Positions 1-32,768 of a stretch of 64,000 nt of DNA are shown piece by piece. This DNA is from a virus. A program made the position numbers and the translations under genes. The first letter of the stretch is position 1; each line of letters opens with the position of its first letter. Where the stretch lies: positions 11,653-75,652 of the IMG/VR virus record IMGVR_UViG_3300018424_003600. One strand, 5' to 3'. The notes beneath the pieces are model-generated. The model was not told the origin of the DNA. It worked only from the letters and a program-made list of their open reading frames with translations, and searched no databases.

Positions 1-498
1 GATCGAGGCGAAGCTAGAATTATAAAACTAGACATTAAAACGTGTTATGCTATGCATTCTGACATTGATGATAGATGGCATTTGGCATTACAAAAAGGTG
101 AAAGCTATCTAGTAGACTTAGACAAAAAAGACATGCACCAAACACTGCCAGGTATTTGGTATATTATGGATGCCGGAAGACTACATAGTGCAGTAAATTT
201 TGGAGATGCTAGTAGATATCAATTGGTTGTTAGAAAACTACTGAATAAAAATACACTAACTGCTCCAGTAGGAGTAAATTTATCTATTAACAATCCTCCT
301 GAAAATTATAGATATGTTGTAGATCAATTTATTAGTCCAAAGTTAAATTACTGGAACAAAAATAATAAATTATCAAATTTCAAACAAAATAACGACAAAT
401 CAATTTCTTTTATGTTAGAAAAAGATTCAATATCTGAATTAGAAAAAGCAGTAGACAAACTTAACTTAGACACAAGAGTAATTTATGACTCCATTTAA
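1..498 (+). CDS. 2OG-Fe(II) oxygenase, aspartyl/asparaginyl beta-hydroxylase-like (5' end outside window)
   Basis: Frame is open from base 1 (DRGEARIIKLDIKTCYAMHSD...). HxD (HSD) plus distal His (LHSAVN) and Arg (SRYQL) fit the double-stranded beta-helix facial triad; extra C-terminal domain. Confidence 0.7.
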   Translation, partial: DRGEARIIKLDIKTCYAMHSDIDDRWHLALQKGESYLVDLDKKDMHQTLPGIWYIMDAGRLHSAVNFGDASRYQLVVRKLLNKNTLTAPVGVNLSINNPPENYRYVVDQFISPKLNYWNKNNKLSNFKQNNDKSISFMLEKDSISELEKAVDKLNLDTRVIYDSI

Positions 499-1039
499 AA
501 AATATATAGATGGCAACTTATGTCAAGCAACACCTATATATGACGGGCTTTATGACGATGACACATTTGTAATGAAATTTAAAGATTCGTTTTGGTTTAA
601 CCAAGAAATAAGAGGCATAGGATTAATATCTCACAAATGGTATGCTCCTGAGATTACTTCTGTTAACTCTTTAGAAAAAGAAATTAAATTTAAGTGGTAT
701 GATACTAATCTAAATCATTTATTTCATTTTAACAAAAATTTACCAAATGACTGGAGAGAACAAATTAAGTATATTCTACAAGACTTAAAGGATGCAGGAT
801 TATATAAACTTAATATATATCCACATACTTTTTTTGTAAAAAACGATAAAATTTGTATAATGGATTTACATGCCTGTCTATGTCACGATGACGAAATAAA
901 ACAAGATGCTATTGGAGATGTTATAAACGACAAAAATAGATTTCAATTTGAAAACGGCATTTTAAATATCAAAGATACATATGAATATACAATAAAACAA
1001 AACATAGGAAACTGGCCTGGGAATTTTTTAAATGGTTAA
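485..1039 (+). CDS. Protein-kinase/APH-fold protein with degenerate catalytic loop
   Basis: VMK...FNQE...APEI N-lobe pattern; GLYKLNIYPHTFFV in the HxDxxxxN position; ICIMDLH in the DFG position. Paralogue of 2420..3112. Confidence 0.5.
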   Translation: MTPFKKYIDGNLCQATPIYDGLYDDDTFVMKFKDSFWFNQEIRGIGLISHKWYAPEITSVNSLEKEIKFKWYDTNLNHLFHFNKNLPNDWREQIKYILQDLKDAGLYKLNIYPHTFFVKNDKICIMDLHACLCHDDEIKQDAIGDVINDKNRFQFENGILNIKDTYEYTIKQNIGNWPGNFLNG

Positions 1040-1580
1040 ATTTATAGGAAACTGTAATAACATAATAGACTGGAATGCAGTTATTGAATGTGTAAACAAT
1101 TCTACACCTGCGTACATAGGTCCAAGACACGATGTAGGACATCATGTAGAAGGTGTTCAGGAAGTTGCAGCACCGTTGCGTGATGCAGGTTATAAATTTA
1201 AAGCAGAAGGCGGTAATGCTAGTTGGGAAATGCATTTTCCGGGCGAACAATTCCCCAAAGAAATAGTTACAACATTTATGGATTTTGTCGGAATGAAATC
1301 GTATATAAATTGTTGGATTAGTAAAGTATTACCAGGCGATGTTGCACCGTGGCATTGGGATATTACAGATGACGAAAAAACGTTAGATGCTAGTGGAGAT
1401 CTTAAAAGATTTCATTGTCATATAGATATTCCTAGACCTGGACATATTTTTATTTTAGACGATACTTGTTTATATAATGAAGCACAAGGAAATGTATATC
1501 AATGGCCAGATAGAAAAAGCTGGCATGCTGGTGCAAATGCAGGACTAACTCCAAAGTATCTTTTTAATATATGGGGTTAA
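1032..1580 (+). CDS. 2OG-Fe(II) oxygenase (AspH-like)
   Basis: WISKVLPGDVAPWHWD (HxD) ... WHAGANAG (distal His) ... PKYLF. Confidence 0.75.
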   Translation: MVKFIGNCNNIIDWNAVIECVNNSTPAYIGPRHDVGHHVEGVQEVAAPLRDAGYKFKAEGGNASWEMHFPGEQFPKEIVTTFMDFVGMKSYINCWISKVLPGDVAPWHWDITDDEKTLDASGDLKRFHCHIDIPRPGHIFILDDTCLYNEAQGNVYQWPDRKSWHAGANAGLTPKYLFNIWG

Positions 1581-2392
1581 TAAAATTCTAAAGTATTTAT
1601 ACCAAGTACTTTTCTAAACTCTGGTGTAAACTTACAATCAACTCGCATACCGTATTCAATTTCTTTAGATTCTTCACCTCCATGCCAATCTTGGTCATTC
1701 CAAAAACCTGCATGACAATTTAGATAGTGCTTGTTTTGTGTTTCTGGATCCCATATATAAAATCCTCTTTTTGTACGATAGCGTATGTGTATAAATTCGT
1801 TGTTGTGCGGACTATATTGTTTATCGTCCATGACGCCATTGTTTGCATCTAAATCTCTGTGTTCAAATGCTCTTCCGTTATGATCACAATGAAAAAATAT
1901 CACACGTCCTATTTGATCAATAACACCTTCTGTAACTAAATTTTCTACCCATTTAACTGCTCCTGGAAAATATGAGCTTTCTTCTGTTTTTTGACGTTCG
2001 GCATTGCGTTCGTTCCAATCGCCTTCATTCCATAAAAAATAATATATGTAAGGATCGTTAGCATCTAGAGTAGCTTTTAAATAACGTGTAAAAATATTTC
2101 GTTGTTTATAGTCACCAAAATTAGTAGGTAATATTTTATTGCCTTCTATCTTAATAGGATTATCGTCTGGTAATGCTTGATATTCTTCCCATGCCTTGTA
2201 TATAGGCTTCCAATTAATAGTGTAACTACAATCTTTCCAATCAAACCCGGGTGCCATCCACGTGCCTTCTTTTGCATAATCTCGTGCTAGTGCAAATCCT
2301 CGACATATTTCAGGATGCAAATTTTTGAATCCTTCTATGTCTAAGTAAGGATCTAAGTTAATATACGGTTTTCCGCCAATTCCTCTTATCAT
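1577..2392 (-). CDS. Putative 2OG-Fe(II) oxygenase (DSBH fold)
   Basis: GRVIFF...EHRD (HxD) ... DWHGG (distal His) ... MRVD (possible 2OG-binding Arg). Confidence 0.6.
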   Translation of the reverse strand: MIRGIGGKPYINLDPYLDIEGFKNLHPEICRGFALARDYAKEGTWMAPGFDWKDCSYTINWKPIYKAWEEYQALPDDNPIKIEGNKILPTNFGDYKQRNIFTRYLKATLDANDPYIYYFLWNEGDWNERNAERQKTEESSYFPGAVKWVENLVTEGVIDQIGRVIFFHCDHNGRAFEHRDLDANNGVMDDKQYSPHNNEFIHIRYRTKRGFYIWDPETQNKHYLNCHAGFWNDQDWHGGEESKEIEYGMRVDCKFTPEFRKVLGINTLEFY

Positions 2393-2395
2393 ATA

Positions 2396-2416
2396 ACTAC
2401 TTATGCGGTAAGTAGT
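2396..2416. promoter_or_regulatory. Back-to-back divergent late-type promoters forming an inverted repeat
   Basis: ACTACTTA-tgcgg-TAAGTAGT. TAAGTA lies exactly 5 nt before the ATG on each strand (2398-2403 minus, 2409-2414 plus). Confidence 0.65.
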
Positions 2417-2419
2417 AGT

Positions 2420-3112
2420 ATGAATACTAAGTTTGAGTATTATTTTAACGACATACCCGGAACTGGACTCTGTAGAAACAATTTAATTTATACAAGTCTT
2501 GTTGATTCTAATTTGACTACATTTGTACAATGGTATTATAATGACGGAGAATACCATAAAGGACAAAATCAAGTAGTTGATCCTAGTCTAATGCAAGAAA
2601 AATTTGATAGAGAAGTAAAATACTTAACTCTAATGACTGAAAATTTTCCCGAGCTTGTTCCTAAAATAAAAGAGATTGATACTACAAACCGTAAAATTTA
2701 TTTAGAAATTGACGGAAAAGATTTTTGGAATCGTGCAGGTTGCTTAACAGAAAATTATGATAATGTGTTACCGGACTGGCAAGATCAAATGATCGAAATA
2801 ATTAATGCACATAAAAGTTTAGGCCTTCACAAATATTCAATGCATCCTTCAAGTTATTTTGTAATAGATGGAAAACTAAAAAGTATTAATTACTTTTTTA
2901 CATACCATAACACCGAACCTAACTTTAGTATTGCAGATGTAGAAAGTCACATATACAGTACACGTCAAGATAAAATGCGAGAGCATTTAGAAACTTTAGG
3001 TATTGAGTGGAATACTCCGCAGACATTCGAAACTATGGATAAATTATGCTGGAATAGTTTTAGAAATAATTATCCTATAGAGTTTATAGAAAGAGTTTTA
3101 CAAAAAATATGA
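2420..3112 (+). CDS. Protein-kinase/APH-fold protein with degenerate catalytic loop
   Basis: FDREVKYL...VPKIKEID...KIYLE; LPDWQDQM matches LPNDWREQI of ORF 485; LGLHKYSMHPSSYFV and KSINYF replace HxDxxxxN and DFG. Confidence 0.5.
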   Translation: MNTKFEYYFNDIPGTGLCRNNLIYTSLVDSNLTTFVQWYYNDGEYHKGQNQVVDPSLMQEKFDREVKYLTLMTENFPELVPKIKEIDTTNRKIYLEIDGKDFWNRAGCLTENYDNVLPDWQDQMIEIINAHKSLGLHKYSMHPSSYFVIDGKLKSINYFFTYHNTEPNFSIADVESHIYSTRQDKMREHLETLGIEWNTPQTFETMDKLCWNSFRNNYPIEFIERVLQKI

Positions 3113-3789
3113 ATTTATACTTAAATCCAAAATGGCAGAGAATTGGAATTAGTCTTAGTGGAGGAGCAGATAGTGCTTTATTAGCATACCTTATCTTAAA
3201 ACAAACTAATGCCGAAATATTTTTTACTACACAAATACGTATGTGGAAGTCGAGACCTTGGCAAGGATATATTGCAAGACAAGTAGTACGTTGGTTTAAA
3301 TTTAATTTTCCGCACACAATACATCACATTGAAGGATTTATTCCTCCAGAAATGGAAGAACCGCATACTACAAATATAAAAGACGAATACGGTAAAATTA
3401 AACCTGGTAATAGAATTATACTTAGGGCGCATAATGAATATATTGCACACGAACACAAATTAGATGCTTGGTTTGCAGGAGTAAATAAAAATCCAGACAT
3501 AGAAATACCCGGAGCATTATCTGAAAGAGACGAAGGTACGTTACCTGTACATATGGAACATATGGGAGTTGACATTTATCATCCTTTCGTGTATACTAGT
3601 AAAGACTGGATTATAAAACAGTACTATGAAAATAAAATAGAAGATTTATTAAATTTAACTCGAAGTTGCGAAGGCGAGTTTGAAGGATTAGATTATACTA
3701 CATGGACTCCGGGTAAAAATGTACCCACTTGCGGAGAATGTTTTTGGTGTAAAGAAAGAGAATGGGCTATTAACAAATGTCAAGATTAA
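3109..3789 (+). CDS. queC: QueC-like PP-loop ATPase (7-cyano-7-deazaguanine synthase family)
   Basis: ISLSGGADS PP-loop; C-terminal Zn-binding TRSC...CGECFWCKER typical of QueC. Substrate not established. Confidence 0.7.
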   Translation: MNLYLNPKWQRIGISLSGGADSALLAYLILKQTNAEIFFTTQIRMWKSRPWQGYIARQVVRWFKFNFPHTIHHIEGFIPPEMEEPHTTNIKDEYGKIKPGNRIILRAHNEYIAHEHKLDAWFAGVNKNPDIEIPGALSERDEGTLPVHMEHMGVDIYHPFVYTSKDWIIKQYYENKIEDLLNLTRSCEGEFEGLDYTTWTPGKNVPTCGECFWCKEREWAINKCQD

Positions 3790-4364
3790 TTACCTTTGGT
3801 TGTTCTTACACTTGGGGAGCCGGGTTACCTGGAGATGGTCTTTTTCCAAGCAAATTATCATGGCCAGTTTTAGTAGCTGAAGAATTAAACTTAGAGTTAA
3901 TAAACAAAGGAGAACCTTCTGCTAGTAACACAGAAATATTATATGAGATTTTAACATTTGATTATAAACCAACAGATATTATTGTAATTATGTGGACACA
4001 TACACATAGAGATTTAATTTTTAGTAAATGGGGTGCTAGATTTAAGTCATTAAGAAAAAGATTTAATGCTTCAAAAAAAGATAAATCTTGGCAAAAAATG
4101 ATGAACAAAACAGATTATAATACAAAAAGTTGGTTGTGTATTCATCATGCAGATCTTTTTTTAAGATCAAAAAATTTAAAATATTTACACTATCCATTTT
4201 CTATACACGAGTTGTCTAAATGCACAATTAAAGGATTAGAAATTTCAAATTTTTGCAAAGATGGTATGGTTTTGTTAGACAAAGGGACAGATAATTTACA
4301 TCCTGGTATACGATCTCATAAAGCTACTAGTAAGAATATAGTTAAGGTATTAAATGAAAAATAA
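3777..4364 (+). CDS. SGNH/GDSL hydrolase-family protein (esterase or acyltransferase)
   Basis: Block I FGCSYTWG, block II NKGEPSASN, block V DNLHPG (DxxH). Confidence 0.75.
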   Translation: MSRLITFGCSYTWGAGLPGDGLFPSKLSWPVLVAEELNLELINKGEPSASNTEILYEILTFDYKPTDIIVIMWTHTHRDLIFSKWGARFKSLRKRFNASKKDKSWQKMMNKTDYNTKSWLCIHHADLFLRSKNLKYLHYPFSIHELSKCTIKGLEISNFCKDGMVLLDKGTDNLHPGIRSHKATSKNIVKVLNEK

Positions 4365-5622
4365 ATCGTGTACATTTTGTATGCACCCGTTTACAGGGCT
4401 TGCTACACGAGAAGACGGAGCAATTAAGGTTTGTTGCCGTAGTGCTCCTATTGGATTTATACAAAATGAAACTCTAGAAGAAGCATGGAACAACGATACC
4501 ATGCGAGAAGTACGCAGGCAAGTATTAAATAACGAGCGTCCAGAAGTTTGTAAGCCGTGCTTTGACCTAGAAGATCAGGGCGTACAGAGCTTACGACAGC
4601 GTCATATAGCAGGGGTTATACCAGAAGCACGTATAAACTTGTATCCAGATGCACTAGACGCACTAGACGACAATTATACAATGCCATTTGAGCTTCCTAC
4701 TATGGAAATTAAGCTCAATAATCTCTGTAACCTCAAATGTCGTATGTGCAATCCTTTAGATAGTACACAATGGAAAGACTGGAGTGAGGTAAAACCTTTT
4801 TACGAAAAAGAGAATAATATTCTTATTCCAATTATAGACAAACTTACAGACACACCTGGAAAATATATTGGACCGTTTGACAACAGTGAAAACTGGTGGG
4901 CATCCTTTACTAAACTATTGCCGCACTTCCGCAGAGTAGAATTTGCGGGTGGGGAACCTTTGATGGATCCTTATCATTACAAGATACTTGACATGTTAGC
5001 ACCTTACGGCGAAAACATAGAACTAAAGTATGCTACAAACGGTACTACGCTAGGTATAAAAGGGGGACGCACTATACACGACTATTGGCCTAAGTTTAAA
5101 TCAATCGCTGTAAACGTAAGTATAGACGGTATACACGATGTCTACGAGTACATTAGAGGCAATGGTAAGTTTAGCGAAATAGAAGAAAACATCAAAGTGT
5201 TTAAGTCATTTCCTAATGTAAGTCGTGTAGTAGGTGCGTTTACTGTACAAGCAAACAATATTATGCAGATTGACAAAGTAATAGAATACTTTTTAGAAGA
5301 AATGGGTATTGTTTTTTACTCGCATCGTGTAAACTATCCCATGGCACTATCTGCTCAAGTTATTCCAAACTTTTTAAAAACAATTGTAATTAATAATCTT
5401 GAACAAATGAAACACAAAGTATTAGGCTATAGTTTAGTTAAAGAGTATGATATAATAAAGCAAGTTACACTACAACAAATACAAGATAATATAAATTTCT
5501 TAGAAGCAAAAGACATGCATCCTACCCATTGGCAAGATTGTGTAAATTTTAATCGTGCGCTAGATAAAACACGTAATCAAGATTTTCTTACTGTAAACCC
5601 GGAGTTTGCTCCGTATGTATAG
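4354..5622 (+). CDS. Radical SAM enzyme with N-terminal twitch/SPASM-like domain
   Basis: CNLKCRMC (CxxxCxxC), FAGGEPL, TNGT, VSIDG; N-terminal FCMHPF...DGAIKVCC...CKPC. Confidence 0.9.
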   Translation: MKNKSCTFCMHPFTGLATREDGAIKVCCRSAPIGFIQNETLEEAWNNDTMREVRRQVLNNERPEVCKPCFDLEDQGVQSLRQRHIAGVIPEARINLYPDALDALDDNYTMPFELPTMEIKLNNLCNLKCRMCNPLDSTQWKDWSEVKPFYEKENNILIPIIDKLTDTPGKYIGPFDNSENWWASFTKLLPHFRRVEFAGGEPLMDPYHYKILDMLAPYGENIELKYATNGTTLGIKGGRTIHDYWPKFKSIAVNVSIDGIHDVYEYIRGNGKFSEIEENIKVFKSFPNVSRVVGAFTVQANNIMQIDKVIEYFLEEMGIVFYSHRVNYPMALSAQVIPNFLKTIVINNLEQMKHKVLGYSLVKEYDIIKQVTLQQIQDNINFLEAKDMHPTHWQDCVNFNRALDKTRNQDFLTVNPEFAPYV

Positions 5623-6526
5623 AATAGAAAGTAGATGGGGTCATCAAGATAGTATACATGTTGAATGGAATATTGGTAAACGCTGTAACCTAGACTGTGC
5701 GTATTGTCCTGCTGAAATACACGACAATTTTTCACCACACACTGACTTAGATGTTATGGTTAACACAATATACGAATTAGAAAAAATAAACAAACCTATA
5801 CGTTTAAGTTTAACTGGCGGTGAACCTACTGTGCATCCTAAAATTAATGATATATTAGAATGTGCTAGTGCTAGACTACAATGGCTAAGTGTTACAACTA
5901 ATGCATTACGTTCCCCCGAATGGTATATTAAACAGCCTGTGGACCAATGGGTGTTTAGTTTACATTTTGACAATGAACATTCTATAAGAGCAACAGAAAA
6001 TGTTGTTAGATATACACAGTTGCTTGATATGGAGAGTAAGGATACTAAATTTCAAGTAAACTTAATGTGTCATCATGAATATATGGAAGATGTAAAGGCT
6101 GCTGCTATTTTGTTAGATTCTCATCATGTTCCGTATGTAACTAGACGTATACGCTGGACTAAAGCAGATGACAGAGATTACTTTGACGATATGCGTTATA
6201 AAGAAAAAGACCTAGAATGGATACTTAGTAAAACTTCAACTGTTAAAGCAAATTGTGTTATCGACGGGGAACACAAAGTACATGCTAATGATATTATTAA
6301 GTACAAATGGAATCAATTTGAAAATTGGACTTGTAATGCAGGGCTAGAAAGTCTAATGATTAACTGGGACGGTGAAGTACATCGTGCTACATGTAGAGTA
6401 GGTGGGAGCTTAGGCAATATTTACGACGGTAGTTTTGAAATACCAAAAGAACCAATTGTTTGTACACGTAAATGGTGTACCTGTGCAGCAGACATTCCGT
6501 TGACTAAAGTAAACGTTGTTTCCTAG
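5615..6526 (+). CDS. Radical SAM enzyme with C-terminal twitch/SPASM-like domain
   Basis: CNLDCAYC, LTGGEPT, TTNA; C-terminal WTCNAG...INWDGEVHRATC...CTRKWCTC. ATG at 5615 preferred over TTG at 5606. Confidence 0.9.
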   Translation: MYRIESRWGHQDSIHVEWNIGKRCNLDCAYCPAEIHDNFSPHTDLDVMVNTIYELEKINKPIRLSLTGGEPTVHPKINDILECASARLQWLSVTTNALRSPEWYIKQPVDQWVFSLHFDNEHSIRATENVVRYTQLLDMESKDTKFQVNLMCHHEYMEDVKAAAILLDSHHVPYVTRRIRWTKADDRDYFDDMRYKEKDLEWILSKTSTVKANCVIDGEHKVHANDIIKYKWNQFENWTCNAGLESLMINWDGEVHRATCRVGGSLGNIYDGSFEIPKEPIVCTRKWCTCAADIPLTKVNVVS

Positions 6527-7481
6527 CATTTGTTTCTGGTTGACAATCACACACTCCTTGTTTCCTGCAAATAGTAGGTATTATTGTTGGAGCAAACTTG
6601 TTAATAAAATCTTCATCATAAATGTTATAGCATGTATCTAAATTATAAATTGGTTGTCCACAGCCTCCTCTAATATCACCAGTTTTATCAATAAAGAAAG
6701 TATCTATTCCAATATTACATTCCCAACCTGTAAAAATATTTTTATTGTTTAGCGATAGCCAGTTACGTGGAACTTCTTGTTCTGTTTTATCAGAAAAAAT
6801 TACTGTAGGATTATTTCTAGGTAACTTCTCAGCACCGAGCCAATATTCTTTGTTAGGCCAACGCTTTAAAGAATTGCTAAGATAGTCTTTTTGTTCTTGT
6901 GTATATTTTTGTTTATCATTGTGTACTTCAAGTGCAGTAATTGGCCATTCATATTTGCTTTTCTTAAGTGCTTCAACTATAGAAACGCATTTGTCCCAAA
7001 CAGTTGGATCCATTAATACCATTCCATTCACAGTTTTATTTTTAGTGTATAAAATATCACCAACTTCTGCAATGTGTGCAGGATCAACTCTTTCGTGATG
7101 ACAACTTAACATAGTATGGTCAACATAATCGCCATACTCGTTCCACCATCGTATAGTTCTACTTCCATTAGAACTCATACTAATAACACACTTATGTTCT
7201 TCGCTAAAATATTTTACAAAAGTGCCAAACTCTCTCCATAATGTAGGTTCACCGCCGATTATATGTAGATGTATTTCACGTTTATTTCCATTACTTTTAT
7301 AATAATCAATAATATGACTAAGATTATCTTTTATTCTTTCAAACTTAGGCCATGGTGTATCACCTTCGTGATATCCTGGAAAACAATACCAGCAATTATA
7401 GTTACAAATATTACTTAAAAATAATTCTATCCTTAAAATATCTTTAGGTATATTTGATTCTATTCTAATTATGTCTTTCAT
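6504..7481 (-). CDS. Radical SAM enzyme with C-terminal twitch/SPASM-like domain
   Basis: CNYNCWYC, IIGGEPT, SSNGSR; C-terminal WECNIG...IDKTGDIRGGC...CRKQGVCDC. Confidence 0.9.
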   Translation of the reverse strand: MKDIIRIESNIPKDILRIELFLSNICNYNCWYCFPGYHEGDTPWPKFERIKDNLSHIIDYYKSNGNKREIHLHIIGGEPTLWREFGTFVKYFSEEHKCVISMSSNGSRTIRWWNEYGDYVDHTMLSCHHERVDPAHIAEVGDILYTKNKTVNGMVLMDPTVWDKCVSIVEALKKSKYEWPITALEVHNDKQKYTQEQKDYLSNSLKRWPNKEYWLGAEKLPRNNPTVIFSDKTEQEVPRNWLSLNNKNIFTGWECNIGIDTFFIDKTGDIRGGCGQPIYNLDTCYNIYDEDFINKFAPTIIPTICRKQGVCDCQPETNARKQRLL

Positions 7482-12166: not shown

Positions 12167-12168
12167 GT

Positions 12169-13395: not shown

Positions 13396-13439
13396 ATTTT
13401 TTCCTCTTATATTTTTATAGTTATCTAAGTATTTTTAAT

Positions 13440-14180: not shown

Positions 14181-15454
14181 TATATTAACTCATAAATTTC
14201 TGGAAATTTAACAGGACGCATATTGTCTAAGGTTTTTAAATAATCAAGTGTTTGGTCTAACTTATCACTCCAGTCTTCACTATTCATAAAATCTATTAAT
14301 CCGCTCCATTGTTGTACTTCGCTGTTGTCTGGATATTTTGCCATAAAGTTTCTTAACTTTTCTTCTACTCGTTTTTTTGATTCAGCAGATAAAACCTTTG
14401 TACAAAGATATTGAGGCCAATGTAGTGTAGCAGCGTGAAATAGTCCGTTACGTCTTGTTCTTTTTCCTATTTTTTTAAAGTTTTGCGACCAAAGCCATTC
14501 AGCAAATTCTGGTAGCCAATAGATGTTAAGTGCCTGAACAGTAGTGTTAATGTCTACAATAATGTCGCCGCCAGTAGTATTATCAAATGTTTTTAAATTC
14601 TTTACTACTTCATCCCACTTTGAAGGATATCTAATATAAGAATTTAAATCTTCGTGCGCATCTAAACTTACCATAATGTGTGTTTTCTTAAAGTGAGTCC
14701 AAAGCTCTAACAATTCTTCGTCTACAACAGTGGCATTTGTATGATAACGTATTTCTACATTTTTAGCATGATCAATTTCTACAAGATATTTTATTAAGTC
14801 TTTGTGTTGTTTAATTAGTAGAGGCTCTCCTCCTGCAAAAATAAGATCTCTAATATTATGTACATCTTTATAAAAGCTATCCCAAAACGCTTGGTTTCTA
14901 TACCATTCGAACTGTTCAACAACAATATTACTTTTATGTTCCCAATCCCACTTAGCTTCACTAGTTAAATTTTTTGCAAGTATTTTAGAATGATTAAGCC
15001 ATTTACTGCTATCATGTGGTCTACACATTATACACTGTAAATTACAAGTATTGCCTAATCTAAAATCAACACTAACAATGCCGCTATCTATAGAACCGTC
15101 TTCATTTGTTTCTGCAACAATTTGTCTTAGTTCATTTATTTTTATAGGGCTCCATTGATTTGCCCAAACATCGTTTTCGTTCTGTCTATGACTTCTGACT
15201 CCAGCAGCTTCTTCTTTATAACAACTATTACAGTACTTGACAGGTTCATTGTTGAGCATCTTTTTGCGAACTTCTTTGTATTGCGGACTATTCCAAATTT
15301 CTTCCCAAGTCATATTATTAAGATTTAATTCGTGTATAGGAGAAGCAACACAACATAGTTGCACTGCGCCGTTTGTTTGTGTTGCACAATGTATCCACGG
15401 CATTATACAAAATTTTTCTGTGGATTTTAATCTATCAAAAAGTGGTTTTGTCAT
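14180..15454 (-). CDS. Radical SAM enzyme with N-terminal twitch/SPASM-like domain
   Basis: FCIMPWIH...NGAVQLCC...CNSC; CNLQCIMC; FAGGEPL; HTNAT; VSLDA; YIRYP. Confidence 0.9.
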   Translation of the reverse strand: MTKPLFDRLKSTEKFCIMPWIHCATQTNGAVQLCCVASPIHELNLNNMTWEEIWNSPQYKEVRKKMLNNEPVKYCNSCYKEEAAGVRSHRQNENDVWANQWSPIKINELRQIVAETNEDGSIDSGIVSVDFRLGNTCNLQCIMCRPHDSSKWLNHSKILAKNLTSEAKWDWEHKSNIVVEQFEWYRNQAFWDSFYKDVHNIRDLIFAGGEPLLIKQHKDLIKYLVEIDHAKNVEIRYHTNATVVDEELLELWTHFKKTHIMVSLDAHEDLNSYIRYPSKWDEVVKNLKTFDNTTGGDIIVDINTTVQALNIYWLPEFAEWLWSQNFKKIGKRTRRNGLFHAATLHWPQYLCTKVLSAESKKRVEEKLRNFMAKYPDNSEVQQWSGLIDFMNSEDWSDKLDQTLDYLKTLDNMRPVKFPEIYELI

Positions 15455-15457
15455 TAT

Positions 15458-16714: not shown

Positions 16715-16715
16715 A

Positions 16716-17645
16716 TTACAACTTTTCTATAAATCTTTGATGGTCTGTTCTAGCAGGATGTTCATATACTTCTTTAAAAAATTTACTTTGATCTTTATCA
16801 AGTGGTGCTGCTGCTATAGGTAATTTGAGCTCACTTACTAGTTGCTGTCCTAATACTACAGTTTCTTCTAATAATGTATCATTGGTGATTTTCTTTGAAA
16901 CAGTATTATCCCAATAATTATTAAGATATTCAAAGTCACGAACATTAACATAATCCCAGTCTGTACACATAGTTTTATATAACCCTTCTCTAGCACCATA
17001 TATAGCCCAAAGCCCGTTAGTAACATCAGAACCTACCATACTCCAAATGTACAGCCAATGTAGGCAACGCCAATGATTATTTTTAAATTCTTCTTTAGCA
17101 ATTCTTACACCACGATCAGTGGCAAGTTTTACTCCTTCTCTAAATCCTGCTCTCCAAGCCTGTGCAGGTGTTTCATTATTATATACATCAGAATATGTAC
17201 TGTTCATTTGTATGTAATGAGCGTCCCAACAAAAGTCTACTTGGGCATGAGCATTATTTGGATCTGCATTTTCATGAGTACGCATACGTAAAACATATTG
17301 TTTAGGCCAACATTTAAGTCCACCATTGCCATAACGCAACCCGTTGATTTCGTTTCTGCCGCACCAACTTATTACAGCATTTTCTAAATCCATGTGTTCG
17401 TTAAAATCAATTTCTTGGTTTAAAAAATCTTCCCTAATCCTATTGTCGCCGTCAACAGTAATAAACCGCTCAGTTTCTGATAATTCAGCACAAGCCTTGT
17501 GTGCAGCATCTGAACCTTTTACTCCGTGTACACGCTTTGCCCAGGGCACTTTTGAACACAAGTCTGCGTAATTTTTTTCTGCATTTGGTTCATCATAACT
17601 TAGATAAATTATGTCGTAGTCAATAGGTTTAAAAATTTTTGACAT
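16716..17645 (-). CDS. Putative glycosyltransferase (GT-A fold)
   Basis: YDIIYLSYDE, KRVHGVKG, ITVDGD (DxD), YGNGGLK, AWRAGFREGVKL; colinear with 11483..12166. Confidence 0.7.
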   Translation of the reverse strand: MSKIFKPIDYDIIYLSYDEPNAEKNYADLCSKVPWAKRVHGVKGSDAAHKACAELSETERFITVDGDNRIREDFLNQEIDFNEHMDLENAVISWCGRNEINGLRYGNGGLKCWPKQYVLRMRTHENADPNNAHAQVDFCWDAHYIQMNSTYSDVYNNETPAQAWRAGFREGVKLATDRGVRIAKEEFKNNHWRCLHWLYIWSMVGSDVTNGLWAIYGAREGLYKTMCTDWDYVNVRDFEYLNNYWDNTVSKKITNDTLLEETVVLGQQLVSELKLPIAAAPLDKDQSKFFKEVYEHPARTDHQRFIEKL

Positions 17646-18949
17646 TACTCAAGTACCTCATGTGTATAATGATTAAAATACTTTGATGTATATACGCTTA
17701 CTTCATCAGTTTCATAGTCTGATTCAAAATCAAAAGAAACTGTAGATTCCAATATTTCTTTTAGTTTAAAAGACAAACTTCTATACAAAACATTAGGATT
17801 GCTAGGAGAAGTTACACTAAAATAAAGCATAGAATTAGAATTAGCAAATGAAGTTTTTAAAAACTTTTTAGTTAATGGATGAAGTGCAATGTTCCACTTT
17901 TTGTTTATTTTATTTTGTGTTAGTACAATATCTACATCTATAGCCGACTGTATTCTATATAATTGTCTTTCTAATAAAACTAAACTTCCGTTTTTAAGTT
18001 CTTCAATGTTTGTAAATTTAACATTATCTTTTAAATTTTCCCCGTGTACAATATTGTTGTTAGAGGTATAATAAAATTGTGTTATTCTATCAGTTGAGTA
18101 ATTTTCAAATTCAGTAGTGCTATCTTTTTCGACAAACATATAAAGACTATTATTATCTAAAAATAGTTCATAATTATCAACATTTTCAAATTCTAAGTCT
18201 TTGTTTTCGTCATCATATAACTTTACATTTTTTTCGACTAAAGTAGCATTGTTTGTTCTAAACTTACTACCTTTGCGTTGATTCTTTTTAATTTTATAAA
18301 CTTTGTTGTTTATAAAAATATGCTGACCTTCGTAGTGTTCAACATCGTCGTACCAAACATCAACATTTACTCCTACATACTGCTGTTCTTTAACAATCAT
18401 TTTACCAGTATTAATTTCGTGCGTAGGTGTAGGTACGTCTGGAATATATACATCTTTAATATATATTCTACTGATATTTTCTAAACTAGAAGCAGCCTTT
18501 ACATCTACATTTAAAATGTAAACATTATTGTCAAACCATACAAAATTACCTTTGTTATATTTTTCTCCTTGTTTCCAAATAAAAACATCAATACCTTTAT
18601 ACTCTTTTATAAACTTGTATAACGGATTTATATTTGAAAACTCAATCTTAGGAAGTTCGTAACAAAAATTACCAAGAGAATTTGCTGCTAGTTCAGCATT
18701 TATTTTTTTCAAACGAGTTTGCTTTTCGACTATGTCGTAAATTACTGTATATTCGTCAATATTTGACTCACCATTTAAAATAGGTTTAGCATCATATATA
18801 GGAACAGCTAGTACATCATATTCGCTATCTTCTTTTGTGCCACTAACTTTGTGTATTTTTCCAGTTGCTTGGTCATAATACACATATGCATCATTTGATG
18901 CTGCTTTTACTTTTAAATTAGTTATTAGTTCAGCTAGATTAGACGCCAT
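17645..18949 (-). CDS. Hypothetical protein with two CBM5/12-like aromatic repeats
   Basis: WKQGEKYNKGNFVWFDNNVY and WYDDVEHYEGQHIFINNKVY; no catalytic motif recognised. Confidence 0.45.
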   Translation of the reverse strand: MASNLAELITNLKVKAASNDAYVYYDQATGKIHKVSGTKEDSEYDVLAVPIYDAKPILNGESNIDEYTVIYDIVEKQTRLKKINAELAANSLGNFCYELPKIEFSNINPLYKFIKEYKGIDVFIWKQGEKYNKGNFVWFDNNVYILNVDVKAASSLENISRIYIKDVYIPDVPTPTHEINTGKMIVKEQQYVGVNVDVWYDDVEHYEGQHIFINNKVYKIKKNQRKGSKFRTNNATLVEKNVKLYDDENKDLEFENVDNYELFLDNNSLYMFVEKDSTTEFENYSTDRITQFYYTSNNNIVHGENLKDNVKFTNIEELKNGSLVLLERQLYRIQSAIDVDIVLTQNKINKKWNIALHPLTKKFLKTSFANSNSMLYFSVTSPSNPNVLYRSLSFKLKEILESTVSFDFESDYETDEVSVYTSKYFNHYTHEVLE

Positions 18950-19781
18950 TATAACTCCTATAACTTTTTAAAACCGGTGTTTTTTCAATAAAACTATTTT
19001 CTGTATAATGAAAAATTCCTGATTGTATATAGTTGCCTATTTGTAATTCGCAGTTTTCTGTCGTATATACTGGTATCTTATCTTGCCAACTTGATTTAAC
19101 TTGTTCCCATCCTTGACAATATGGTTTCATATGTACAAATGTTGGAAAACTAGTTTTAGAATTTGTGATTTCAGTTTCACAGTCTAAAATTTTAGTAACA
19201 ATTGCTGCACAAACATCGATACTTACATGTTTGGGTCTAGTTTCTGGTGTAAGATTTTTTTCGTAAAATGCTTCCCAGTTTTGTATTACAAGTTCTAGCC
19301 ATGTATAAAATTCTTGTGCAAAATCTGATTTTTTAAAGTAATGAAATCCTGCAAACAAATTAGGCAAATTATTATCAATAAATGTTTTTCTATAATAACT
19401 AGTGTTTGCAGTGTTTCCTCTATAGTCTAGTACTTTGTTTGTAAAAAATAGCTCATAGTTCGATAAGAAGTCCCACCATCTATCAATGTTTTGTAAAACT
19501 AGCATATCAGTATCCATTACAATAGTTTCATCATATGGACTAGCATGATAGATTTTCCAACGATTTTCTACTTTCCATTCACTTTCTTCAGCAGCGTCTC
19601 CAAAAGGGATCGGAATAATGTTATCAAAAAACTTTTGGTAATTTAAAGGAACATCGTCATCAGTAATAACTGAAATTTTAGTTTCTTTATTGTGTGTTTG
19701 TAAACTCATTGCTAACAAACATGCTTGCATTACATAATCTGTTTCGCCGTTTTGTGCTAGAACAACTATACCTTTACTCAT
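18939..19781 (-). CDS. Putative glycosyltransferase (GT-A, GT8/mannosyltransferase-like)
   Basis: KGIVVLA...YV.QA..LA.SL; ASPYDETIVMDTD (DxD); AGFHYFKK; FVHMK. Confidence 0.7.
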   Translation of the reverse strand: MSKGIVVLAQNGETDYVMQACLLAMSLQTHNKETKISVITDDDVPLNYQKFFDNIIPIPFGDAAEESEWKVENRWKIYHASPYDETIVMDTDMLVLQNIDRWWDFLSNYELFFTNKVLDYRGNTANTSYYRKTFIDNNLPNLFAGFHYFKKSDFAQEFYTWLELVIQNWEAFYEKNLTPETRPKHVSIDVCAAIVTKILDCETEITNSKTSFPTFVHMKPYCQGWEQVKSSWQDKIPVYTTENCELQIGNYIQSGIFHYTENSFIEKTPVLKSYRSYNGV

Positions 19782-20629
19782 AGAGGTACCTCATCAATAA
19801 TTCTACCTAAACTAAATTTATTCATTACATGAATGTTTTGTCCTTTGGTTTTGATTGCAGTGTATTCTCCTAAATAATCTTTCTTTTCAACTAAAAACAT
19901 CATTTCGTCATCTTGTAGTTTCCAAAGGATATCTTTGTCGGTTGTGTAAAGCATAGAACCCGGTAACTGAGATGCAAAACTTCCTGATTCAAAACCATTC
20001 ATAATATGAATAGCAATACTAAATGCAAAGTCATTTCTAAAAAGTGAAGAATTAATTTGGTATGTTCGTTTGTAATGTGTCCATTCTTGCTCTATGTGTT
20101 GTACTAAATCAAAGAATATTTTATTAGTTGGTGTTTTTCTAAAAAACACAACAGTTGCCCAATAAAAATCTACACTAGAATCAGTAATGTATTTGAATTC
20201 ATTTTCATTTCTAACTTTTGCTATATCATTAGAATTTTTATAAAGAGCAAAATCTACATCTAGATCAAATACATTTGATAACATATTGTTAGACACAACA
20301 TAATCAGTGTCCATTATAATAGTTTCGTCATAAGGAGAAAGTTCGTAGACACTTGCACGATTACTATTCTTAAAACTTGCAGTTCTTTGAGACATAGCAC
20401 CATCATGGAACAGCCTAGAGTTTGTTCCATCTGTCCAATCTAGTTCAATTACAGTATCAAATATACTAGAATCAAAAGAACCTTTTAAATAGTCAACGCA
20501 ATCTGTTGCTACTGTAGTAGGTAAATTTAAATATTTTTTTATTCTTTTTGCTAAAAAAACAGCCTGCTTAACATAGTCAATTTGTGAATTATTTTTGGCT
20601 ATTAAAAATACACCTTTAGTCTTGCTCAT
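19778..20629 (-). CDS. Putative glycosyltransferase (GT-A, GT8/mannosyltransferase-like)
   Basis: KGVFLIA...YVKQA; LSPYDETIIMDTD; WATVVFFRK; RNDFAFSIA; HVMNK. Tandem paralogue of 18939..19781. Confidence 0.7.
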   Translation of the reverse strand: MSKTKGVFLIAKNNSQIDYVKQAVFLAKRIKKYLNLPTTVATDCVDYLKGSFDSSIFDTVIELDWTDGTNSRLFHDGAMSQRTASFKNSNRASVYELSPYDETIIMDTDYVVSNNMLSNVFDLDVDFALYKNSNDIAKVRNENEFKYITDSSVDFYWATVVFFRKTPTNKIFFDLVQHIEQEWTHYKRTYQINSSLFRNDFAFSIAIHIMNGFESGSFASQLPGSMLYTTDKDILWKLQDDEMMFLVEKKDYLGEYTAIKTKGQNIHVMNKFSLGRIIDEVPL

Positions 20630-20972
20630 ATCCTACTAATTTTTCCACTTTTCTATTTTTCTTAAGATTACTATATTCTGAATAATAATCGTTAGATGCA
20701 CTAGAATACTTTTCAACAATTTCTTCTAAAAAATCTTCTAAGTTATCAATAGAAGCAGGCAAGCCGTTGTCGTCAATTAATACCGTTGTATCTTGTCCTA
20801 GATTCAACATTGTACTACAAAAGGTTATAAGTTCTCTAGTTATGGTAAATTGACAGCCGCTAAAAAAATGTATCAAATCGTCATTGTATTTTTCTTTGAG
20901 GAGACGCTTTTGATTGTTGAGTGTAGTCATATAGTTGGAAAAGTCAAGTGCTTTTTCTAAACGTTCATCCAT
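20616..20972 (-). CDS. Small hypothetical protein (possibly fibre-associated/chaperone)
   Basis: 118 aa, AGGAG RBS, first gene after the fibre genes; function guessed from position only. Confidence 0.5.
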   Translation of the reverse strand: MDERLEKALDFSNYMTTLNNQKRLLKEKYNDDLIHFFSGCQFTITRELITFCSTMLNLGQDTTVLIDDNGLPASIDNLEDFLEEIVEKYSSASNDYYSEYSNLKKNRKVEKLVGYEQD

Positions 20973-26589: not shown

Positions 26590-26598
26590 GACGATTCC

Positions 26599-28086: not shown

Positions 28087-28111
28087 TCGTGTAACCCCTA
28101 AGCATTTATAT

Positions 28112-28119
28112 TATTTATC
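28112..28119 (-). promoter_or_regulatory. T4-like late promoter motif (GATAAATA)
   Basis: Intergenic, 25 nt upstream of the 28086 start. Confidence 0.55.
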
Positions 28120-28123
28120 GTTT

Positions 28124-30070: not shown

Positions 30071-30071
30071 G

Positions 30072-32760: not shown

Positions 32761-32768
32761 TATTTATT
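32761..32768 (-). promoter_or_regulatory. T4-like late promoter motif (AATAAATA) overlapping the stop of the giant gene
   Basis: 17 nt upstream of the 32743 start, followed by an AGGA RBS. Confidence 0.5.

What the first reader, a model, noticed from the sequence alone, without database searches (positions are those of the whole stretch)
1..20972. Phage-encoded >=21-kb radical SAM / glycosyltransferase biosynthetic cluster abutting the tail-fibre genes: candidate virion (or host-surface) glycan decoration system
Seen: about 22 consecutive, mostly overlapping enzyme-like genes (7 radical SAM, 5 GT-like, UDP-sugar dehydrogenase, 2 SGNH, 3 2OG-Fe(II) oxygenases, 2 kinase-fold, QueC-like, methyltransferase), continuing beyond base 1. 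The GTs sit nearest to and co-oriented with the fibre genes. Established: twitch-domain radical SAMs such as BtrN oxidise sugar/cyclitol substrates; UGD-family enzymes make uronic acids; SGNH proteins such as AlgX and PatB O-acetylate glycans; some giant viruses and mycobacteriophages glycosylate their own virions. Inference: GTs build a glycan that the other enzymes tailor (oxidation, epimerisation, methylation, acylation, amidation), giving a chemically variable coat on fibres or capsid. I know of no characterised phage pathway with this many radical SAM enzymes.
Basis: partly seen in the sequence, partly recalled or inferred. Interest (0 to 1): 0.92.

Follow-up and report, generated by a model that had tools for sequence, protein, structure and literature searches.

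The report
Jumbo-phage radical-SAM sugar-tailoring island
A fragment of an uncultured salt-marsh giant phage carries, inside its tail-fibre gene block, a real island of about 28 kb of soluble enzymes (eight radical-SAM enzymes, four to six sugar transferases and sugar-tailoring enzymes) that most likely builds and edits an unusual sugar decoration; neither its chemistry nor its target has been tested.

Summary
Window 1-20972 has 24 tightly packed ORFs, including seven radical SAM genes, a UDP-sugar dehydrogenase and a QueC-like PP-loop enzyme. Fold-level evidence supports four GT-A-type glycosyltransferases. The island runs a further 7.6 kb left of base 1. That part holds a B12-radical SAM, a StrB1-type amidinotransferase, a PLP enzyme and an NDP-sugar epimerase/dehydratase.

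Three radical SAMs belong to the catalogued but uncharacterised family NF033640 (N_Twi_rSAM). None of 38 island proteins has a predicted membrane segment.

The order fibre genes, 118-aa gene, two GT8-like genes, GT-A, radical SAMs is invariant in 80 related viral loci. It recurs in miniature in the cultured Ralstonia jumbo phage RsoM2USA. The radical SAM/GT-A core also occurs in Bdellovibrionota chromosomes, beside GT2 and carbamoyltransferase genes.

Sugar chemistry is well supported. Virion glycosylation is the favoured acceptor but is unproven. Host-surface glycan, a small molecule and DNA remain rivals.

Fibre-linked GT/UGD islands (the pelagimyophage "HRC") and multi-radical-SAM phages (CP220) are already in print, but uncharacterised. 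This scan has reported the same island type many times on other DNA.

The parts
1..498 (+). 3' part of a Cpz10-like AspH-type Fe(II)/2OG hydroxylase gene (whole gene L009:11467-12150)
   Evidence: A profile of 11 homologues hits PDB 7v4f (Cpz10) at E 1e-15. H81/D83/H124 are invariant. The Pfam Asp_Arg_Hydrox hit is weak.
   Evidence: Paralogy at E 3e-4. No Pfam or NCBIfam hit. The kinase fold was not verified.
1032..1580 (+). cupin/2OG-oxygenase-like protein. Paralogues lie upstream at L009:9175-9696 and 10928-11428.
   Evidence: Invariant H108-x-D110...H165. Weak match to Cpz10, E 0.048.
1577..2392 (-). unknown conserved protein (possible third oxygenase, unverified)
   Evidence: 55-81% identical homologues in related loci. 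No family hit.
2420..3112 (+). unknown protein, paralogue of 485-1039
3109..3789 (+). QueC-like PP-loop ATP pyrophosphatase (probable carboxylate-activating amidating enzyme)
   Evidence: Invariant SGGxDS plus C187/C208/C211/C214. Weak Pfam QueC hit. Weak PDB hits to asparagine synthetase and NAD synthetase PP-loops.
3777..4364 (+). possible SGNH-like esterase/acyltransferase (motif only)
   Evidence: N-terminal FGCSYTWG motif. No family hit.
4354..5622 (+). N-terminal-twitch radical SAM (NF033640)
   Evidence: 327 bits against a cut-off of 170. Pfam SPASM at residues 9-69 and Radical_SAM at 122-287.
5606..6526 (+). short radical SAM with a C-terminal Cys cluster
   Evidence: PF04055 39.6 bits. 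Cys pattern.
6504..7481 (-). short radical SAM with a C-terminal Cys cluster
   Evidence: PF04055 48.7 bits
7478..8857 (-). N-terminal-twitch radical SAM, the conserved core orthologue
   Evidence: NF033640 387 bits. 57-92% identical in 36 viral loci. 46-49% identical in Bdellovibrionota.
8857..9459 (-). conserved core protein, class-I methyltransferase-like (unverified)
   Evidence: Homologues in 44 loci. GGWxG...DID motifs. Only E 0.48 to PDB methyltransferases.
9449..10486 (-). short radical SAM, conserved core
   Evidence: PF04055 47.8 bits. 49% identical in 56 bacterial loci.
10453..11499 (-). radical SAM with a C-terminal SPASM-like domain. Its nearest solved relative is BlsE.
   Evidence: Pfam. 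PDB 7vob at E 6e-9. TIGR04466 42.9 bits, far below the cut-off of 400.
11483..12166 (-). GT-A-fold nucleotide-sugar transferase, conserved core
   Evidence: AF2 pLDDT 94. Foldseek gives GT2-type glycosyltransferases at E about 1e-5. VIA Z 10-11.6 over residues 1-138. D59 of VDAD is invariant.
12169..13395 (-). NDP-sugar 6-dehydrogenase (UGD family)
   Evidence: PF03721 65 bits and PF00984 61 bits. GACHPRD catalytic-Cys motif. TIGR03026 154 bits, below the cut-off of 190.
13440..14180 (-). possible SGNH hydrolase/acyltransferase (motif only)
   Evidence: FGDSWGRG near the N-terminus. No family hit. Not conserved in related loci.
14180..15454 (-). N-terminal-twitch radical SAM (NF033640)
   Evidence: 374 bits
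15458..16714 (-). GT10-like candidate (lead only). A paralogue lies at L009:9697-10944.
   Evidence: Atlas feature score 0.79 to GT10 clusters. A structural neighbour is a viral fusion with an NAD epimerase/dehydratase domain. Paralogy.
16716..17645 (-). GT-A-fold protein, paralogue of 11483-12166
   Evidence: 33% identity, E 5e-27. Conserved downstream of the GT8 pair in 56/56 loci.
17645..18949 (-). unknown 434-aa protein
   Evidence: No hit. 34% identical homologue in G001 only.
18939..19781 (-). GT8-like GT-A glycosyltransferase (paralogue b)
   Evidence: Aligns with 19778-20629 and shares the DxD motif. Weak glycogenin hit. Present in 74/74 loci.
19778..20629 (-). GT8-like GT-A glycosyltransferase (paralogue a)
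   Evidence: AF2 pLDDT 75. Foldseek gives glycogenin, LgtC, alpha3GalT and UGGT at E about 1e-5. D107xD109 invariant. 1822 metagenomic homologues.
20616..20972 (-). conserved 118-aa protein between the fibre genes and the GT8 pair (function unknown; could be a fibre chaperone)
   Evidence: Present directly upstream of the GT8 gene in 79/79 loci and in RsoM2USA.
21078..25574 (-). 1498-aa fibre-family protein. The N-terminal domain is shared with 25639-26589. It is followed by about 1150 aa of Ser/Thr-rich Ig-like repeats. Candidate acceptor, not part of the enzyme set.
   Evidence: S+T is 24-50% per 50 aa from residue 300 on. I-set hit. Paralogy.
25639..32129 (-). four fibre-family genes (25639, 26599, 28124, 30072)
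   Evidence: PHROG tail fibre and tail collar fibre hits. Syntenic in G001 and G004.

Best explanation
The island is a wholly cytoplasmic pathway that makes, transfers and chemically edits sugars.

Proposed steps:
1. Nucleotide sugars are prepared by the UGD-family dehydrogenase and the NDP-sugar epimerase/dehydratase.
2. Four GT-A-fold transferases (two GT8-like, two GT2-like), and perhaps two GT10-like proteins, build a short glycan on a soluble acceptor.
3. Eight radical SAM enzymes then diversify the sugars: three N-terminal-twitch, three short C-terminal-twitch, one SPASM-type and one B12-type.
4. They act together with Fe(II)/2OG hydroxylases, a PP-loop amidating enzyme, a PLP aminotransferase, a StrB1-type amidinotransferase, a methyltransferase-like protein and SGNH-like proteins.
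5. The reactions would be C-H abstraction chemistry such as oxidation, epimerisation, decarboxylation and C-methylation, plus amination, amidino transfer and acylation.

The most likely acceptor is a virion protein of the fibre module in which the island is embedded, so that progeny carry a decorated host-recognition apparatus.

Shown: the enzyme families and folds, the absence of membrane components, and the invariant synteny with fibre genes.
Inferred: sugars as the radical SAM substrates, the order of steps, and the virion as acceptor.
For: Families and folds: radical SAMs, UGD, epimerase/dehydratase, NF033640; GT-A and GT8-like folds with invariant DxD; amidinotransferase, E 4e-84; Cpz10-like hydroxylase; PP-loop.

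Sugar context of the same core elsewhere: Bdellovibrionota loci combine the radical SAM trio and the GT-A protein with Pfam GT2 proteins, a carbamoyltransferase and an SDR.

No membrane step: no island protein reaches a Kyte-Doolittle 19-residue mean of 1.6. There is no flippase, polymerase, polyprenyl-phosphate transferase or exporter.

Fibre linkage:
- The same order (baseplate, giant protein, fibres, 118-aa gene, GT8 pair, GT-A, radical SAMs) occurs in G001 and G004.
- In 80 viral loci, fibres lie upstream on the same strand in 67/67, and a radical SAM lies downstream in 54/56. The order is never reversed.
- The same order occurs in the cultured Ralstonia phage RsoM2USA, ORFs 355-347.
- No other record among the 50,697 in the phage collection has these genes.
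- An Mtd_N fibre-like gene flanks the far side here and in G001-G003.

Candidate acceptor: a Ser/Thr-rich 1498-aa fibre-family protein sits immediately upstream of the GT genes.
Against: - No glycan, mass shift or transcript timing has been measured.
- The 80 loci are one phage lineage, so conserved order may be inherited rather than functional.
- The Ser/Thr-rich extension is missing from the G001 homologue.
- The best characterised relatives of several enzymes (StrB1, Cpz10, BlsE, BtrN) act on small molecules, not on glycoproteins.
- The N-twitch radical SAMs are nearest to the peptide maturase SkfB.
- The bacterial versions have no virion, so the core chemistry is not tied to virions.
- GT8 enzymes also build LPS. 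The published reading of similar islands is host O-chain modification (PMC7029224).
Confidence: 0.4

Rival explanations
1. Host-surface remodelling. The island supplies unusual nucleotide sugars and peripheral transferases that alter the host's LPS O-chain or capsule during infection. This would block superinfection or stop progeny from sticking to debris. It is the reading given for pelagimyophage host-recognition clusters.
For: GT8-like enzymes and UGD are typical LPS genes, and this interpretation is published for fibre-linked GT/UGD islands (PMC7029224). GT-A enzymes that act on lipid-linked acceptors often lack membrane segments. The bacterial versions sit in chromosomes.
Against: No membrane protein, flippase, polymerase or initiating transferase occurs among the 38 proteins. 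The island lies downstream of, and co-oriented with, late-type structural genes, a poor position for an early exclusion function. The GT8 pair is far more conserved (about 70% identity across more than 100 homologues) than would be expected for enzymes tracking variable host O-antigens.
Confidence: 0.2
2. A small-molecule product. The island makes a diffusible aminoglycoside-like or nucleoside-antibiotic-like compound (a guanidino, amino, uronic-acid-derived sugar). The compound would act on the host or on competitors, and nothing is attached to the virion.
For: Nearest characterised relatives come from antibiotic pathways: StrB1 inosamine-phosphate amidinotransferase (E 4e-84), Cpz10, BlsE and BtrN (weak). 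A similar aminotransferase, amidinotransferase and radical SAM trio is annotated as 'antibiotic synthesis' in a cyanophage (PMC12801897). An MFS transporter and an asparagine synthase lie beside some bacterial arrays.
Against: The phage island has no exporter or resistance gene. Four to six glycosyltransferases are more than such molecules usually need. The amidinotransferase cassette belongs to the variable left part and not to the conserved core. The invariant position behind the fibre genes is unexplained.
Confidence: 0.15
3. Protein side-chain or RiPP-type maturation. The SPASM/twitch radical SAMs and the oxygenases modify amino-acid residues of a fibre protein or a small peptide (cross-links, epimerisation, hydroxylation), and the transferases add sugars only secondarily.
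For: The best solved match of the N-twitch family is SkfB (E 2e-9). Many NCBIfam sub-threshold hits are peptide maturases. AspH-type hydroxylases often act on proteins.
Against: No conserved small ORF occurs in or near the island in 43 related loci or in the intergenic gaps. All peptide-maturase hits are far below their cut-offs and cover only the generic radical SAM core. Sugar-nucleotide enzymes are part of the conserved context.
Confidence: 0.08
4. DNA hypermodification. The transferases and tailoring enzymes decorate bases of the phage genome with an edited sugar, to evade restriction.
For: Phage GT-A-like enzymes glycosylate DNA in other systems. A QueC-like PP-loop enzyme, 2OG oxygenases, a PLP enzyme and radical SAMs also occur in known base-hypermodification pathways (background knowledge). 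One bacterial GT2 neighbour has a faint TAGT hit, E 0.009.
Against: The 75-kb contig shows no hydroxymethylase, DpdA/TGT or other queuosine-pathway gene. The island lies in the structural and fibre module, not the replication module. The same core occurs in 31 of 151 Bdellovibrionota genomes, where DNA sugar hypermodification is not known. The oxygenases resemble AspH/Cpz10, not TET/JBP.
Confidence: 0.05

Closest known systems
NCBIfam NF033640, N_Twi_rSAM (twitch domain-containing radical SAM protein)
   Same: Three island genes score 327-387 bits against a cut-off of 170. They have the N-terminal five-Cys auxiliary domain ahead of CxxxCxxC.
   Different: The family has no assigned reaction or substrate. 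Here its members occur in arrays with two other radical SAM types and GT-A proteins, in phages and in Bdellovibrionota.
Host recognition cluster (HRC) of pelagimyophages and cyanomyophages (Zaragoza-Solas et al. 2020, PMC7029224)
   Same: A large island inside the structural region that mixes tail-fibre genes with glycosyltransferases (GT8 the most common) and UDP-glucose 6-dehydrogenase. The paper mentions radical SAM proteins in marine members.
   Different: The HRC is described in T4-like phages of about 150 kb, between VrlC and gp14, as hypervariable, and is read as host O-chain modification. Here the phage is a Rak2/Atu_ph07-type jumbo phage. The fibre-proximal part is invariant rather than variable. 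The island is dominated by eight radical SAMs.
Campylobacter phages CP220/CPt10 (Timms et al. 2010, PMC2853527)
   Same: T4-like phages with 11-12 radical SAM genes, including an exchangeable five-gene module, plus an amidinotransferase. Function unknown.
   Different: No detectable similarity to the N-twitch genes at E 1e-5 in the phage collection. No fibre linkage or GT core is reported.
Mycobacteriophage virion glycosylation (Freeman et al. 2023, cited in PMC12801897) and chlorovirus PBCV-1 capsid glycosylation (PDB 2p72)
   Same: Virus-encoded cytoplasmic GT-A enzymes encoded beside structural genes. PBCV-1 A64R is among the structural matches of the GT-A model (Z 9.4).
   Different: Those systems have demonstrated glycans and few tailoring enzymes, with no radical SAMs. 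Nothing has been demonstrated here.
BlsE (cytosylglucuronate decarboxylase) and StrB1 (inosamine-phosphate amidinotransferase) of antibiotic pathways
   Same: These are the nearest solved relatives of 10453-11499 (E 6e-9) and of L009:7243-8301 (E 4e-84, full length). A UGD that would make the uronic acid lies two genes from the BlsE-like gene.
   Different: The BlsE similarity is generic (42.9 bits against a cut-off of 400). No cytosine- or cyclitol-forming enzymes were found. The amidinotransferase is in the variable part of the island.

Membership tests
Radical SAM superfamily (PF04055) | Pfam score above the gathering cut-off, and a CxxxCxxC cluster motif | tested here: met
   All seven window genes and the upstream B12-type gene score 35-49 bits against a cut-off of 29.5. 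CxxxCxxC is present in all eight.
NF033640 N_Twi_rSAM | Whole-protein score above 170 bits, with the auxiliary Cys domain N-terminal to the radical SAM core | tested here: met
   4354-5622 scores 327 bits, 7478-8857 scores 387 and 14180-15454 scores 374. Conserved C20, C38, C39, C95 and C98 precede C153/C157/C160.
NF033640 N_Twi_rSAM | A defined reaction or substrate | not testable with these tools
   The model is a 'subfamily' with no function. No paper was found.
UDP-glucose/GDP-mannose dehydrogenase family | N-terminal NAD-binding domain and central domain above the Pfam cut-offs, plus a catalytic Cys | tested here: met
   PF03721 65 bits and PF00984 61 bits. GACHPRD motif.
UDP-glucose/GDP-mannose dehydrogenase family | NCBIfam TIGR03026 score above cut-off, and the C-terminal UDP-binding domain | tested here: not met
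   154 bits against a cut-off of 189.8. No PF03720 hit. This is a divergent member, so its substrate is uncertain.
GT-A glycosyltransferases (GT2-like), for 11483-12166 and 16716-17645 | GT-A Rossmann-like fold with a DxD motif | tested here: met
   pLDDT 94. Foldseek E about 1e-5 to WrtF, CgT, PcManGT, ppGalNAcT and SunS. VIA Z 10-11.6 over residues 1-138. VDAD with invariant D59. IspD-type nucleotidyltransferases score equally, so transferase chemistry is not proven.
GT-A glycosyltransferases (GT2-like), for 11483-12166 and 16716-17645 | Sequence membership of a curated GT family | tested here: not met
   No Pfam, NCBIfam or PHROG hit. The profile finds no PDB relative.
GT8 (glycogenin/LgtC type), for 19778-20629 and 18939-19781 | GT-A fold resembling retaining GT8 enzymes, with a DxD motif | tested here: met
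   Foldseek E 1e-5 to 1e-4 to glycogenin, LgtC, alpha3GalT, UGGT and GlyE, with TM 0.36-0.46 on a model of pLDDT 75. Invariant D107xD109.
GT8 (glycogenin/LgtC type), for 19778-20629 and 18939-19781 | Pfam PF01501 membership | tested here: not met
   No Pfam hit. phmmer against glycogenin gives only E 0.36.
Host recognition cluster (HRC) of T4-like marine myophages | An island within the structural module that contains tail fibres together with GT and LPS-type sugar genes | tested here: met
Host recognition cluster (HRC) of T4-like marine myophages | Located between VrlC and gp14 of a T4-like pelagi- or cyanomyophage, and hypervariable | tested here: not met
   The baseplate wedge is closest to Rak2/Atu_ph07-type jumbo phages. 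The fibre-proximal module is invariant in 80 loci. VrlC and gp14 were not looked for.
BlsE (TIGR04466) | Equivalog score above 400 bits | tested here: not met
   42.9 bits. BlsE is only the nearest solved structure.
Amidinotransferase (StrB1/AGAT) family, upstream gene L009:7243-8301 | Full-length similarity to solved members | tested here: met
   1bwd at E 4e-84 over residues 3-350. SxtG and AGAT at E 1e-53 to 1e-57. Catalytic residues were not checked.
RiPP systems with radical SAM/SPASM maturases | A precursor peptide gene beside the maturase | tested here: inconclusive
   No conserved short ORF in 43 related loci or in the window's gaps. A larger protein as substrate cannot be excluded.
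Virus-encoded virion glycosylation systems | A glycan demonstrated on a virion protein | not testable with these tools
   Needs glycoproteomics of virions. RsoM2USA is the only cultured carrier found.

The most novel reading that the evidence does not exclude
Giant phages use an uncharacterised family of radical SAM enzymes (N-terminal twitch) to perform new radical chemistry on sugars already destined for, or attached to, their tail fibres. This would give a chemically diversified glycan coat on the host-recognition apparatus. The same toolkit is shared with predatory Bdellovibrionota, which would use it on their own surface structures.
Probability: 0.25. Interest if true: 0.85.

Novelty: new variant of a known kind. 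Interest (0 to 1): 0.6.

Why it matters
If the reading holds, three things follow.
- It would add radical-SAM sugar editing to the ways in which viruses decorate their particles.
- It would give the first function to a curated but unstudied enzyme family (NF033640). That family is expanded to about 17 copies in some 1.9-Mb Bdellovibrionota genomes, and its fibre-proximal partner genes have at least 579 loci in IMG/VR.
- It would bear on how aquatic jumbo phages tune host recognition or evade recognition.

A cultured phage, Ralstonia phage RsoM2USA, carries a one-radical-SAM miniature of the system, so the question can be tested directly.

Even if the target proves to be the host surface or a small molecule, the enzymology (arrays of paralogous twitch radical SAMs with GT-A proteins) is unexplored.

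Tried and rejected
Searches that found nothing:
- Megablast of the 21 kb against 50,697 phage records: no match.
- T4-type late promoter TATAAATA: 3 sites against 13.7 expected, so no support. A looser ATAAATA motif sits 15-30 nt before several structural genes and before the UGD gene, but I did not test it statistically.
- Pfam, NCBIfam and PHROGs on the GT-like and other unknown ORFs: no hits.
- Profile against PDB for the GT-A family: nothing. For the methyltransferase-like family: only E 0.48.
- Literature searches for jumbo-phage radical SAM/GT clusters, N-terminal twitch in phages and Bdellovibrio radical SAM clusters: nothing relevant.

Leads tested and not found here:
- A conserved 33-residue peptide reported by earlier notes on other DNA: not found in this window or in 43 related loci.
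- The flanks of the bacterial arrays hold housekeeping genes (primase, Lon, an aminoacyl-tRNA synthetase), not fibre-like or flagellar genes. The idea that the bacterial versions sit beside adhesin fibres found no support.

Inconclusive or abandoned:
- Short, low-depth contigs from four salt-marsh RNA libraries lie on both the island and the fibre gene. DNA carry-over cannot be excluded, and contigs give neither strand nor level, so this is not evidence of expression.
- A first maximum-likelihood tree run did not finish. The FastTree result is used only to say that phage and Bdellovibrionota sequences form separate groups. No donor is inferred.
- Complex prediction was not used, because an enzyme-substrate pair is a poor case for it.

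Full report
**Source and setting**

The window is bases 11653-75652 of a 75.6-kb IMG/VR viral contig that CheckV rates about 20% complete. Its baseplate wedge protein is about 35% identical to those of the Rak2/Atu_ph07/Serratia BF/Salicola SCTP-2 group of jumbo myoviruses. The rest of the window encodes a baseplate hub, a 5153-aa giant protein and a series of fibre paralogues with PHROG tail-fibre hits. Near-identical DNA occurs in many salt-marsh metagenomes from 2018.

**Checking the observation**

Twenty-four ORFs fill window 1-20972, with overlaps or gaps of 105 nt or less.

What is confirmed:
- Pfam confirms seven radical SAM genes and a UDP-glucose/GDP-mannose dehydrogenase.
- All radical SAMs keep CxxxCxxC.
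- The ORF at 3109-3789 has an invariant SGGxDS PP-loop and four C-terminal Cys, like QueC.
- The ORF that crosses base 1 is an AspH-type Fe(II)/2OG hydroxylase. Its profile hits Cpz10 of caprazamycin biosynthesis at E 1e-15.
- 1032-1580 and two upstream paralogues keep an HxD...H triad.

The 'GT-like' ORFs hit no curated family, so I folded two of them.
- 11483-12166 gives a confident model (pLDDT 94). Its N-terminal 138 residues match GT-A glycosyltransferases, and equally IspD-type nucleotidyltransferases, at VIA Z 10-11.6. Foldseek lists only GT2-type enzymes at the top. Its VDAD motif has an invariant second Asp.
- 19778-20629 (pLDDT 75) matches glycogenin, LgtC, alpha-1,3-GalT, UGGT and GlyE, with an invariant DxD.
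- Each has a paralogue in the island.
- 15458-16714 is GT10-like only as a weak lead.

The SGNH, methyltransferase and 'kinase-fold' calls rest on motifs or on nothing.

The island continues 7.6 kb to the left of base 1. That part holds:
- an NDP-sugar epimerase/dehydratase;
- a B12-binding radical SAM;
- a full-length StrB1-type amidinotransferase (PDB 1bwd, E 4e-84);
- a fold-type-I aminotransferase-like protein;
- two more cupins and a second GT10-like protein.

Further left lies an Mtd_N fibre-like gene. The island therefore spans about 28.5 kb and is bracketed by fibre genes.

**What the radical SAMs are**

- Three of them (4354, 7478, 14180) are members of NCBIfam NF033640, 'twitch domain-containing radical SAM protein', at 327-387 bits against a cut-off of 170. 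The N-terminal auxiliary-cluster architecture is thus a known family, though one without a known function.
- Three are short enzymes with C-terminal Cys clusters.
- One has a SPASM-like C-terminus. Its nearest solved relative is the sugar decarboxylase BlsE (E 6e-9), but it falls far below the BlsE family cut-off.
- The nearest solved relative of the N-twitch family is SkfB (E 2e-9). BtrN scores only E 0.003.

Sequence similarity therefore does not say whether the substrate is a sugar or a peptide.

**Relatives and synteny**

The 7478-8857 protein retrieves 36 viral loci. The conserved core consists of 3109, 4354, 5606, 7478, 8857, 9449, 10453 and 11483.

Two larger related contigs were compared, with baseplate identity of 65% and 45%. 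Both have the same order: baseplate wedge, giant protein, fibres, the 118-aa gene, the GT8 pair, a GT-A gene, then UGD and the radical SAMs.

A search with the GT8 alignment found at least 579 loci in IMG/VR. Counts among the best 80, each over the loci with enough flanking sequence:

| Feature relative to the GT8 gene | Loci |
|---|---|
| 118-aa gene directly upstream | 79/79 |
| Fibre-family genes upstream on the same strand | 67/67 |
| Second GT8 gene downstream | 74/74 |
| GT-A gene downstream | 56/56 |
| Radical SAM within 10 kb downstream | 54/56 |
| Radical SAM within 10 kb upstream | 0/67 |
| Fibre-family genes downstream | 0/56 |

These loci belong to one lineage, so the counts are not independent.

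The cultured Ralstonia jumbo phage RsoM2USA is distant, yet it has a miniature of the same arrangement after its fibre-like ORF355: the 118-aa gene, two GT8-like genes, a GT-A gene, one N-twitch radical SAM, a second GT-A gene and the methyltransferase-like gene. It is the only one of 50,697 phage records with these genes.

**Cellular relatives**

The closest cellular homologues of the core are in Bdellovibrionota chromosomes. Identities are 46-49% for 7478, 49% for 9449, 34% for 10453, 41% for 11483 and 31% for 8857.
- These loci contain arrays of up to seven or more N-twitch paralogues.
- They also contain Pfam GT2 proteins, a carbamoyltransferase, an SDR, PP-loop and PLP enzymes like those of the phage, and B12 radical SAMs.
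- Their flanks are housekeeping genes.
- NF033640 members above cut-off occur in 31 of 151 sampled species of the phylum and in none of 14 control genomes. One 1.9-Mb genome has about 17.
- In a FastTree of the 7478 orthologues, the phage sequences and the Bdellovibrionota sequences form separate groups. I infer no donor.
- Several 'MAG' hits from other phyla group with phage contigs and are probably mis-binned phage DNA.

**What the island most likely does**

The recurring partners of the radical SAMs, in phages and bacteria alike, are nucleotide-sugar enzymes and GT-A transferases. That makes sugar chemistry the best-supported substrate class; I put it near 75%.

None of the 38 island proteins has a predicted membrane segment. 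The pathway therefore has no flippase, polymerase, initiating transferase or exporter, and it must act on a soluble acceptor or feed host machinery.

Three points make a virion protein the favoured acceptor:
- the invariant position behind the fibre genes, on the same strand;
- the fibre-like gene on the far side;
- a 1498-aa fibre-family protein directly upstream whose last 1150 residues are 24-50% Ser/Thr in Ig-like repeats.

This step is inference, and the Ser/Thr-rich tail is absent from the G001 homologue.

The rivals are host O-chain or capsule modification (the published reading of similar islands), a diffusible amino- or guanidino-sugar metabolite, residue-level protein maturation, and DNA hypermodification. 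The structured fields weigh each of them. No conserved short ORF that could be a RiPP precursor was found.

**Comparison with what is known**

- Fibre-linked islands with GT8 and UGD genes are described as the host recognition cluster of pelagimyophages and cyanomyophages (PMC7029224).
- Phages with 11-12 radical SAM genes and an amidinotransferase have been known since 2010 (PMC2853527).
- An aminotransferase, amidinotransferase and radical SAM trio is reported in a cyanophage (PMC12801897).

None of these has been characterised. I found no paper on the N-twitch family or on the phage/Bdellovibrionota core.

Earlier notes of this scan describe the same island type on many other genomes. I treated them as leads only. 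I tested the amidinotransferase lead and it held. I looked for the invariant-peptide lead and did not find it here.

**Verdict**

The feature is real, large and well conserved. The sugar-tailoring reading is supported, and the virion-coat reading is plausible but unproven. I rate it a new variant of a known kind, namely phage glycan and host-recognition islands. Its real interest lies in the unexplored radical SAM enzymology and in the availability of a cultured test phage.

Noticed in passing
window 32764-48225 (-): A single 5153-aa ORF lies between the baseplate wedge and the fibre genes. It is 53% identical over its full length in a related contig, and a 2541-aa counterpart (ORF361, a confirmed virion protein) lies at the same place in RsoM2USA.
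   Followed up: partly
window 21078-25574 (-): A 1498-aa fibre-family protein whose last roughly 1150 residues are Ser/Thr-rich (up to 50%) Ig-like repeats joined by Pro-rich linkers. This explains the local GC rise to 0.41. The closest relative, G001, lacks the repeat region.
   Followed up: partly
G007 (Bdellovibrionales chromosome behind L106), e.g. C1:792-803 kb and 1068-1092 kb: About 17 NF033640 radical SAM genes lie in three arrays in a 1.9-Mb genome. This is an extreme paralogue expansion for such a small genome.
   Followed up: partly
L048, L089, L090, L091, L094, L097 (genome contigs): Contigs filed under Thermoplasmata, Gammaproteobacteria, Rickettsiales, Acidimicrobiaceae, Verrucomicrobiales and Chloroflexota MAGs carry the phage-type island, and some group with phage contigs in the tree. 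They are probably mis-binned phage DNA.
   Followed up: partly
window 2393-2419: The 27-nt divergent intergenic region between 1577-2392(-) and 2420-3112(+) is an almost perfect palindrome (ACTACTTACCGCATAAGTAGT), with start codons a few nt from each end. It may be a shared operator or promoter.
   Followed up: no
window, upstream of 21078, 26599, 32141, 48225 and 12169: An ATAAATA-like motif lies 15-30 nt before the start codons of several structural genes and of the UGD gene, while the exact T4 late box TATAAATA is under-represented (3 sites against 13.7 expected).
   Followed up: partly
L009:56-1381 (+), left end of the contig: A DUF2201 metallopeptidase/VWA-like protein (CobT-like) lies at the contig start, outside the island.
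   Followed up: no
L011 (Vibrio phage K566, OZ196521, about 160-180 kb): A cultured 255-kb Vibrio phage has five or six clustered radical SAM genes distantly related (22-25% identity) to the N-twitch genes. They lie beside NAMPT and ribonucleotide reductase genes rather than fibre genes.
   Followed up: no
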